Part shown: one piece after another, positions 50,061 to 50,190 of the stretch
Layout: each line of letters starts with the position of its first letter
Position numbering within the stretch: the stretch's first letter is position 1
Made by a program: the position numbers and the translations under genes
The notes under the pieces: model-generated
The model's input: the letters and a program-made list of their open reading frames with translations, nothing else
What the model was told of the DNA's origin: nothing
The model's database searches: none
Origin: an uncultured cyanobacterium
Lineage (GTDB): Bacteria > Cyanobacteriota > Cyanobacteriia > Cyanobacteriales > Cyanobacteriaceae
Assembly: GCA_963749915.1 (NCBI GenBank)
Contig: CAVVOP010000021.1
Span: 714,107 to 778,106, forward strand
Length of the DNA: 64,000 bases
Direction: 5' to 3'

Positions 50061-50190
50061 TTATGAAGTCCTCCCGAACACACACACCACACGAAAACCG
50101 ATAGCGTCGTCGTCGTGCGCGCGCGTATAGTCGCCGTAGCGGTAAGCACAACGGCAGTAGTCCGGATTATCGTGCCATGAACCACCCCGC
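50061..50190 (-). other. DGR-like variable region at the 3' end of the FGE domain
   Basis: Between RGGSW and GFRVV most variable codons end in C/T (cac gat aat, gac tac, tac ggc gac tat, cac gac gac gac); GC 55/90 at 50101-50190 versus 21/60 at 50191-50250 (hand count). Confidence 0.7.

What the first reader, a model, noticed from the sequence alone, without database searches (positions are those of the whole stretch)
50061..50190. DGR-type variable region on the vWA-FGE protein, with no RT or template repeat in the window
Seen: the last ~130 nt jump to about 61% GC (55/90) against 35% (21/60) in the adjacent coding sequence. Variable positions between GGSW and GFRVV are mostly NNC/NNT codons, as expected from mutagenised AAC/AAT template codons, and a pyrimidine tract follows the stop. 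Established: cyanobacterial DGRs diversify C-terminal FGE/CLec domains, often as remote targets. Inference: the sensor of this conflict system is or was diversified by A-to-N retrohoming from a template located elsewhere.
Basis: partly seen in the sequence, partly recalled or inferred. Interest (0 to 1): 0.82.

Follow-up and report, generated by a model that had tools for sequence, protein, structure and literature searches.

The report
Remote hypermutated tip of defence sensor
The end of this cyanobacterial gene differs from a template on another contig almost only at adenines, the mark of a known targeted-mutation machine that likely rewrote the binding tip of a predicted defence sensor; this is an ordinary example, and as assembled the machine is broken and likely no longer working.

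Summary
Confirmed. Window 50070-50191 (minus strand) is the variable repeat (VR) of a diversity-generating retroelement (DGR). Its template (TR) lies on contig C23 (1481-1603), right after a DGR reverse transcriptase (RT). 15 of 33 TR adenines are changed against 1 of 89 other bases (p 2e-9). Only this VR and a cis target on C23 fit that TR. The gene is the vWA-FGE/CLec component of a vWA-MoxR-VMAP system with a CHAT-EAD1 neighbour, an arrangement already published (Kaur 2020, Vallota-Eastman 2020, Doré 2024). The target is frameshifted near 50775, upstream of the VR. The RT has two frameshifts, the TR one extra base, C23 has no avd, and an insertion sequence cuts the 3' pyrimidine tract 18 nt after the stop. 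Sequencing error versus decay is unresolved, since no reads of this strain were found. Side result: in ten other cyanobacterial genomes 20 of 21 cognate VRs carry this tract and 16 of 21 also a short GC hairpin, a possible target signal that my searches did not find described. The scan had already reported the C23 cassette and similar orphan VRs on other DNA.

The parts
50070..50191 (-). Variable repeat (VR), homologous to the TR at G000:C23:1481-1603; changed adenine positions span 50104-50174
   Evidence: 15 of 33 TR adenines changed, 1 of 89 other bases
50061..50103 (-). Constant 3' block and stop codon (TAA at 50061-50063); predicted IMH. The TR departs from both VRs after 50070, as an IMH* would
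   Evidence: 50064-50100 identical in the two targets, 0 of 37 differ; TR/VR alignment; IMH function inferred from PMC5758913
50043..50060 (-). Stump (18 nt) of the pyrimidine tract; 55 nt long in the C23 cis target
48577..50042 (+). Insertion sequence (transposase 48673-49812; ISAs1-type, name recalled) with terminal inverted repeats and no target-site duplication; it cuts the tract
   Evidence: PF13808 and PF01609; ends and flanks
50061..50775 (-). C-terminal part of the FGE/CLec domain, in a different frame from the vWA part
   Evidence: PF03781; TvpA 2y3c at E 5.7e-18; homologues cross frames here
50360..50570 (-). 211-nt block identical to the C23 cis target (C23:2411-2621), including a tandem-repeat insert that codes for SEQLSV repeats
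50765..50785 (-). Frameshift site, net +5 (or -1) against the conserved spacing of homologues
   Evidence: a related contig in run X4 lacks 5 letters at 50773-50780
50708..53248 (-). N-terminal 846 aa: SAV_2336 N-terminal / vWA component plus the start of FGE
   Evidence: NF041121 at E 5.6e-126; model matches MIDAS/vWA domains, Z 8.7, rmsd 4.1, 166 aligned; NorD vWA is the top Foldseek row
53330..54589 (-). MoxR-type AAA+ ATPase
   Evidence: PF07728 AAA_5; MoxR label from context
54653..56197 (-). EAD1 - VMAP-M12 - VMAP-C protein
   Evidence: PF19955, PF20015 (below cut-off), PF20028
56228..57707 (-). CHAT (caspase-like) - EAD1 gene, split by a +1 frame change near 56875
   Evidence: PF12770 and PF19955; homologue L055 reads through

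Best explanation
The 3' end of this vWA-lectin-fold gene matches a template repeat beside a reverse transcriptase on another contig at all but one non-adenine base, so it was likely rewritten in trans by that diversity-generating retroelement, and it is now likely frozen. Shown: the TR, the RT, the adenine bias, a second (cis) target on the same TR, and the vWA-MoxR-VMAP-CHAT context. From established DGR biology: TR RNA is reverse-transcribed with errors opposite adenine, and the cDNA replaces the VR from the IMH end; 14 AAY codons allow up to 15 residues each, about 3e16 variants. Inferred origin: the vWA gene took its CLec 3' half from the DGR's own target gene by duplication or gene conversion and so became a remote target. 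Inferred function (published model, about 55%): the variable CLec tip binds an invader ligand, MoxR remodels the vWA/VMAP complex, and EAD1 recruits the CHAT protease for cell death or dormancy. Inferred present state (about 70% inactive): the RT and target frames are broken, avd is missing in cis and the 3' tract is cut.
For: TR-VR: 15 of 33 A versus 1 of 89 non-A, Fisher p 2.3e-9; cis target 17 of 33 versus 2 of 89. A genome-wide ungapped scan with adenines free finds only these two loci at 1 and 2 mismatches; the only other row within 35 is the TR itself, out of register through its extra base. The two VRs differ at 22 places, 19 of them TR adenines. Identity between the two target genes falls to 142 of 168 directly 5' of the TR boundary, which fits separate rewriting of each VR. 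The RT holds YVDD and matches PF00078; the same RT type is in 32 of 150 other genomes of the order. Five near-identical 1078-1079 aa homologues (P0036-P0040) show different VR ends. Literature: PMC7159879, PMC7517822, PMC10907252 (passages).
Against: No reads of this strain, so no VR polymorphism was seen (best run holds 0.21 of the words). The 26 nt 3' of the TR homology are also nearly identical in the two targets, and retrohoming cannot copy those, so some gene conversion or selection is needed. 'Frozen' is uncertain: five of six frame-breaking lesions are single added bases, which may be consensus errors. The cis target on C23 has no detectable hairpin either, so the IS cannot be shown to have removed one. 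The sensor function is untested.
Confidence: 0.85

Rival explanations
1. The system is intact and still diversifying; the frameshifts are assembly errors and Avd comes in trans from C1 or C8.
For: The RT (568, 1100) and TR (1531) lesions lie in the first 1.6 kb of a contig and are single added bases. Related contigs lack them: 568 in 3 of 4 runs, 1100 in 2 of 4 (two runs do not align there), 1531 in 4 of 4. The C1 VR and the window CHAT gene also carry +1 changes. The TR matches both VRs at nearly all non-A sites, so little time has passed. avd genes lie at C1:23188 and C8:366201.
Against: Conserved genes show only 3 frame changes in 886,569 nt of 805 genes, and IS copies, also at contig ends, mostly show no gaps, so the assembly is not generally error-ridden. 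The target lesion looks like +5, not +1. Loss of avd beside the RT, the IS in the tract, a deleted RT on C8 and orphan VRs are not base-calling errors. The runs are other populations, so they cannot separate error from strain-specific decay.
Confidence: 0.28
2. The window VR was never a target itself: an already mutated allele of the cis target was copied here by gene conversion.
For: A 211-nt identical block and a near-identical 3' end (1 of 57 differ at 50044-50100) show DNA-level exchange between the two genes.
Against: High identity stops at the 5' edge of the TR homology: 26 of 168 differ upstream, against 1 of 89 non-A differences inside. A conversion tract has no reason to end there. 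Remote cognate VRs with the same 3' features occur in other genomes.
Confidence: 0.1
3. The diversified protein tunes signalling or differentiation rather than sensing an invader.
For: Vallota-Eastman et al. argue for regulatory roles of cyanobacterial DGR targets (PMC7517822, passages).
Against: The direct neighbours are MoxR, EAD1-VMAP and CHAT-EAD1, the predicted conflict-system set (PMC7159879). The locus was not found in six same-genus genomes at DNA level, a patchiness that fits defence islands (inference).
Confidence: 0.3
4. The GC rise and the NNC/NNT codons are chance, or an ordinary FGE paralogue end.
For: FGE paralogues share the GGSW and GFRV motifs, and about half of the GC rise is in constant positions.
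Against: 88 of 89 non-adenine bases match a non-coding repeat next to an RT. Against the other TR, on C1, there are many non-A mismatches.
Confidence: 0.01

Closest known systems
DGR-linked cyanobacterial VMAP ternary systems (Kaur et al. 2020, PMC7159879; passages and section 8 read)
   Same: vWA fused to a C-terminal FGS/FGE domain, MoxR, VMAP, EAD1. The paper reports DGR links for about 80% of cyanobacterial and gammaproteobacterial systems, with the TR nearby or elsewhere in the genome.
   Different: Here the target and the CHAT-EAD1 gene are frameshifted as assembled, and the TR is on another contig with ParA and integrase genes.
Remote variable proteins of cyanobacterial DGRs (Vallota-Eastman et al. 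2020, PMC7517822; passages read); Trichodesmium IMS101 with 12 targets (PMC4143802; passages read)
   Same: 3'-terminal CLec VR far from RT/TR, transposases nearby, dispersal by duplication.
   Different: The match here is far stricter than their 50% identity threshold. They only suggest cis features such as cruciforms; the tract plus hairpin is counted here.
Clade 5E DGRs and Thiohalocapsa PB-PSB1 loci (Doré et al. 2024, PMC10907252; passages read)
   Same: vWA-CLec target proposed as the sensor of a MoxR/VMAP system; transposons degrade DGR parts; CLec 3' halves recombine onto new N-termini.
   Different: No population evidence of activity here; placement of this RT in clade 5E was not tested with a tree.
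Bordetella phage BPP-1 DGR target site (Guo et al. 2011, PMC3240598; abstract, section 6 and part 2 of section 5 read)
   Same: Constant IMH-like 3' block; a GC-rich hairpin 3' of the VR in most relatives examined.
   Different: Phage hairpins have 7-10 bp stems, 4-nt GRNA loops and lie 4-34 bp from the VR. The cyanobacterial ones seen here mostly have 5-8 bp stems and 3-4 nt loops and lie 32-64 nt after the stop, behind a pyrimidine tract. The window target has none.

Membership tests
DGR target (remote VR) | Cognate non-coding TR in the same genome | tested here: met
   C23:1481-1603
DGR target (remote VR) | TR-VR mismatches almost only at TR adenines | tested here: met
   15 of 16 substitutions; one extra base in the TR
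DGR target (remote VR) | VR at the 3' end of a CLec/FGE-fold domain | tested here: met
   PF03781; TvpA by sequence
DGR target (remote VR) | DGR-type RT next to the TR | tested here: met
   C23:398-1458, YVDD, PF00078; 65-79% identical to RTs beside TRs in other genomes
DGR target (remote VR) | IMH at the VR end and a different IMH* at the TR end | tested here: met
   By sequence only: constant 3' block, TR diverges after it; function not tested
Active DGR | Intact RT reading frame | tested here: not met
   Two frame changes as assembled; may be assembly errors
Active DGR | Accessory gene avd beside the RT | tested here: not met
   No PF22296 match on C23; a cut PIN gene lies upstream. 25 of 29 sister loci show an avd-like ORF by motif
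Active DGR | GC-rich hairpin 3' of the VR (not universal: 34% in PMC5758913) | tested here: not met
   None in the window or the C23 cis target
Active DGR | VR polymorphism at adenine positions in the population | not testable with these tools
   No run of this strain; only contigs of other populations
vWA-MoxR-VMAP ternary system | vWA component | tested here: met
   NF041121; vWA/MIDAS fold in most top rows, Z 8.7 at best; Foldseek E 7e-4
vWA-MoxR-VMAP ternary system | Adjacent MoxR-clade AAA+ ATPase | tested here: met
   AAA_5 match at 53330-54589; the helix-2 insert was not checked
vWA-MoxR-VMAP ternary system | VMAP protein | tested here: met
   VMAP-C at E 2.2e-18, over its cut-off
vWA-MoxR-VMAP ternary system | Anti-invader activity | not testable with these tools
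   Predicted in the papers read; no test here
Cyanobacterial RT clade 5E / Lineage 4 | Placement in the RT tree | not tested
   Only similarity to RTs of the same order

The most novel reading that the evidence does not exclude
Cyanobacterial DGRs mark their targets with a two-part DNA signal 3' of the stop codon: a 30-65 nt polypyrimidine tract followed by a short GC hairpin, in some cases with tandem G.A pairs. Loss of this signal, here by an insertion sequence landing 18 nt into the tract, would switch off rewriting of one target and fix the current sensor allele while other targets go on changing.
Probability: 0.3. Interest if true: 0.55.

Novelty: new member of a known kind. Interest (0 to 1): 0.27.

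Why it matters
As a finding it is one more clean case of a published arrangement: a DGR acting in trans on the vWA-CLec part of a cyanobacterial conflict system. It shows how such targets likely arise (a 211-nt block shared with the cis target) and how they decay. The more useful lead is the tract-plus-hairpin 3' of cyanobacterial VRs. How remote targets are recognised is left open in PMC7517822, and this feature can be tested directly; it could also sort live from fossil targets.

Tried and rejected
Reads: no run of this strain; X1-X5 are other populations held as contigs, share 0.21 or less. X4 and X5 are RNA libraries whose contigs span a related RT and TR (57 differences over 398-1005), but this does not show transcription in this strain. 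Uniform assembly error rate: rejected; only 6,267 nt within 2 kb of contig ends were tested. An intrinsic hexamer census of frame switches (97 candidates, 57 of one direction and 40 of the other) was too noisy: it found 50774 but missed the C23 lesions. The probability counted seven insertions; I then dropped C23:1666, because it is non-coding and run X1 does not show the gap, leaving six. The 13 kb used there is my rough sum. C1's TR as template for the window VR: rejected, many non-A mismatches. Programmed -1 frameshifting at a T-TTA-AAA word near 50795: rejected, since homology continues in the old frame for about seven more codons. Folding the 3' regions gave no significant structure (z 0.45, -1.87, 0.51). 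No target-site duplication partner for the IS among 17 listed ends. Same-genus genomes: locus not found in 6 searched at E 1e-20, apart from the IS in one. Paper searches for DGR with 'pyrimidine-rich', with 'polypyrimidine', and DGR with hairpin, IMH and Trichodesmium gave 0 papers each. 'Pyrimidine' is absent from the main text of PMC5758913 and PMC4143802, and 'hairpin' from PMC7517822, PMC10907252, PMC5758913 and PMC8144416. Supplements were not read; those of PMC5758913 list inverted repeats per DGR and may already hold the cyanobacterial hairpins.

Full report
Observation. On the minus strand the gene ends [42 protein letters not shown], stop at 50061-50063. GC is 75/130 at 50061-50190 and 21/60 in the next 60 bases.

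The template. BLASTN of the region against the genome (4.69 Mb, 34 contigs) gave two strong hits on contig C23. C23:1481-1603 is a non-coding repeat with 14 AAC/AAT codons, directly after an RT (398-1458). C23:2790-2911 is the VR of a 309-aa FGE gene in cis. Against the TR, with its one extra base set aside, the window VR changes 15 of 33 adenines and 1 of 89 other bases (Fisher p 2.3e-9); the cis VR changes 17 of 33 and 2 of 89. All adenine changes fall in the AAY codons. A genome-wide scan with adenines free finds only these two loci. The two VRs differ from each other at 22 places, 19 of them TR adenines. Non-A changes and indels in VRs are known in DGRs (PMC5758913, passages and section 16).

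The target and its neighbours. The N-terminal part matches SAV_2336 N-terminal (NF041121, E 5.6e-126). An AlphaFold model of residues 1-583 (mean pLDDT 78.6) matches vWA/MIDAS domains (best Z 8.7, rmsd 4.1, 166 aligned), and NorD vWA is the top Foldseek row (E 7e-4); these scores are modest but agree. The C-terminal part is FGE-sulfatase and related to the DGR protein TvpA. Upstream lie an AAA_5 ATPase, an EAD1-VMAP protein and a CHAT-EAD1 gene. Of the 120 homologues listed out of 209, 82 end in a GFRV-type motif, and five near-identical ones show different VR ends. The window gene shares a 211-nt identical block with the C23 cis target; 26 of 168 bases differ between that block and the VR, and 1 of 57 differ at the 3' end. 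I infer that the CLec half came from the DGR's own target, and that the VR was then kept in step with the TR by retrohoming, because high identity ends at the TR's 5' boundary.

Damage. The target changes frame near 50775, net +5 or -1 against homologues. The RT changes frame at C23:568 and 1100, and the TR has an extra base at 1531. Related contigs from other populations lack these bases in 3, 2 and 4 of 4 runs. The window CHAT gene and the VR of a second DGR on C1 each carry +1. That is six lesions in roughly 13 kb, against 3 frame changes in 886,569 nt of 805 conserved genes. Added single bases suggest consensus errors; their confinement to these loci suggests decay; I cannot decide, and put about even odds on error for the C23 ones. 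Other losses are not base-calling errors: no avd on C23 (25 of 29 sister loci show one by motif), a third RT on C8 deleted into its TR end, orphan VRs on C8, C5 and C22 with no TR found, and an IS at 48577-50042 without target-site duplication that starts 18 nt after the stop. Among the 29 sister RT loci, 28 have an open frame of 351 aa or more.

The pyrimidine tract. Of 23 VR-like ends in 29 RT loci of other genomes, 3 were dropped (one cut off, one frameshifted, one too near the edge). Of the other 20, 18 have 70% or more C/T in the 40 nt after the stop, and 15 also a GC hairpin within 110 nt; for 1160 ordinary ORF ends of G006 the counts are 33 and 2, and for 2983 in G000, 75 and 1. In ten DGR-bearing genomes (74 fetched loci out of 84 matches), FGE ends were classed by fit to a TR: cognate 20 of 21 tract and 16 of 21 tract plus hairpin; all others 22 of 47 and 10 of 47; four ends lacked enough sequence (Fisher p 1e-4 and 3e-5). 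These sets overlap, kin are not independent, and the 'other' class includes at least one misclassed cognate VR and probable orphans. In G000 the C1 target has tract and hairpin, the C23 cis target a 55-nt tract without hairpin, and the window only the stump. In BPP-1 a hairpin 3' of the VR is needed for efficient homing (PMC3240598), and Wu et al. found such repeats in 127 of 372 DGRs. I found no mention of a pyrimidine tract, but read no supplements.

How it likely works. Shown: TR, RT, adenine-specific rewriting at two loci, ternary-system context. Established for DGRs: error-prone reverse transcription of TR RNA and replacement of the VR. Inferred: the variable residues form the CLec binding surface; binding is relayed through vWA and MoxR to VMAP and the EAD1-linked CHAT protease (model of Doré et al.; Kaur et al. 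treat the FGS domain as the effector). Likely present state: frozen.

Comparison and verdict. It meets the sequence tests for a remote DGR target and for a vWA-MoxR-VMAP system, and fails those for an intact cassette as assembled. Kaur et al. state that such systems have their TR nearby or elsewhere in the genome, and Vallota-Eastman et al. count 76 remote targets. The locus was not found in six same-genus genomes. New member of a known kind; interest 0.27.

Noticed in passing
G000:C1:19879-24967: Second DGR in the order target-avd-RT-TR; RT frame open for 360 aa. Its VR has 10 adenine changes, no other substitution and one added base that breaks the frame; tract and hairpin present.
   Followed up: partly
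G000:C8:888069-889241: Third DGR RT whose 3' part is deleted and joined to the 3' end of a TR and its spacer; transposase-like ORFs upstream.
   Followed up: partly
G000:C8:364881-371737, C5:190250-190410, C22:661818-662669: Orphan VR-like ends of two further template types, two with avd or an avd remnant behind them; no matching TR in the assembly.
   Followed up: partly
L001:110-358: PIN-domain gene cut short where avd would be expected, 40 nt before the RT start.
   Followed up: partly
window 50480-50570: A tandem DNA repeat sits in frame inside the CLec domain (SEQLSV repeats) and is identical in the C23 cis target.
   Followed up: no
window 56228-57707: CHAT-EAD1 gene split by +1; its EAD1 closely resembles the EAD1 at the start of the VMAP gene. 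Close homologues in only 2 of 150 other genomes at E 1e-25.
   Followed up: partly
window 57770-58675: 301-aa gene at the head of the operon with no Pfam or NCBIfam match.
   Followed up: no
window 61340-63700 and 43553-44681: CHASE2 gene region and a membrane-protein gene in the glycosyltransferase cluster look split into overlapping ORFs.
   Followed up: no
L191, L202, L206, L210 (G147): Four FGE genes with tract plus hairpin that do not fit the one TR found in that genome; probable targets of another or lost template.
   Followed up: no
L134, L137, L146, L167 and G000:C1: Several post-VR hairpins close only with tandem G.A pairs in the stem.
   Followed up: no
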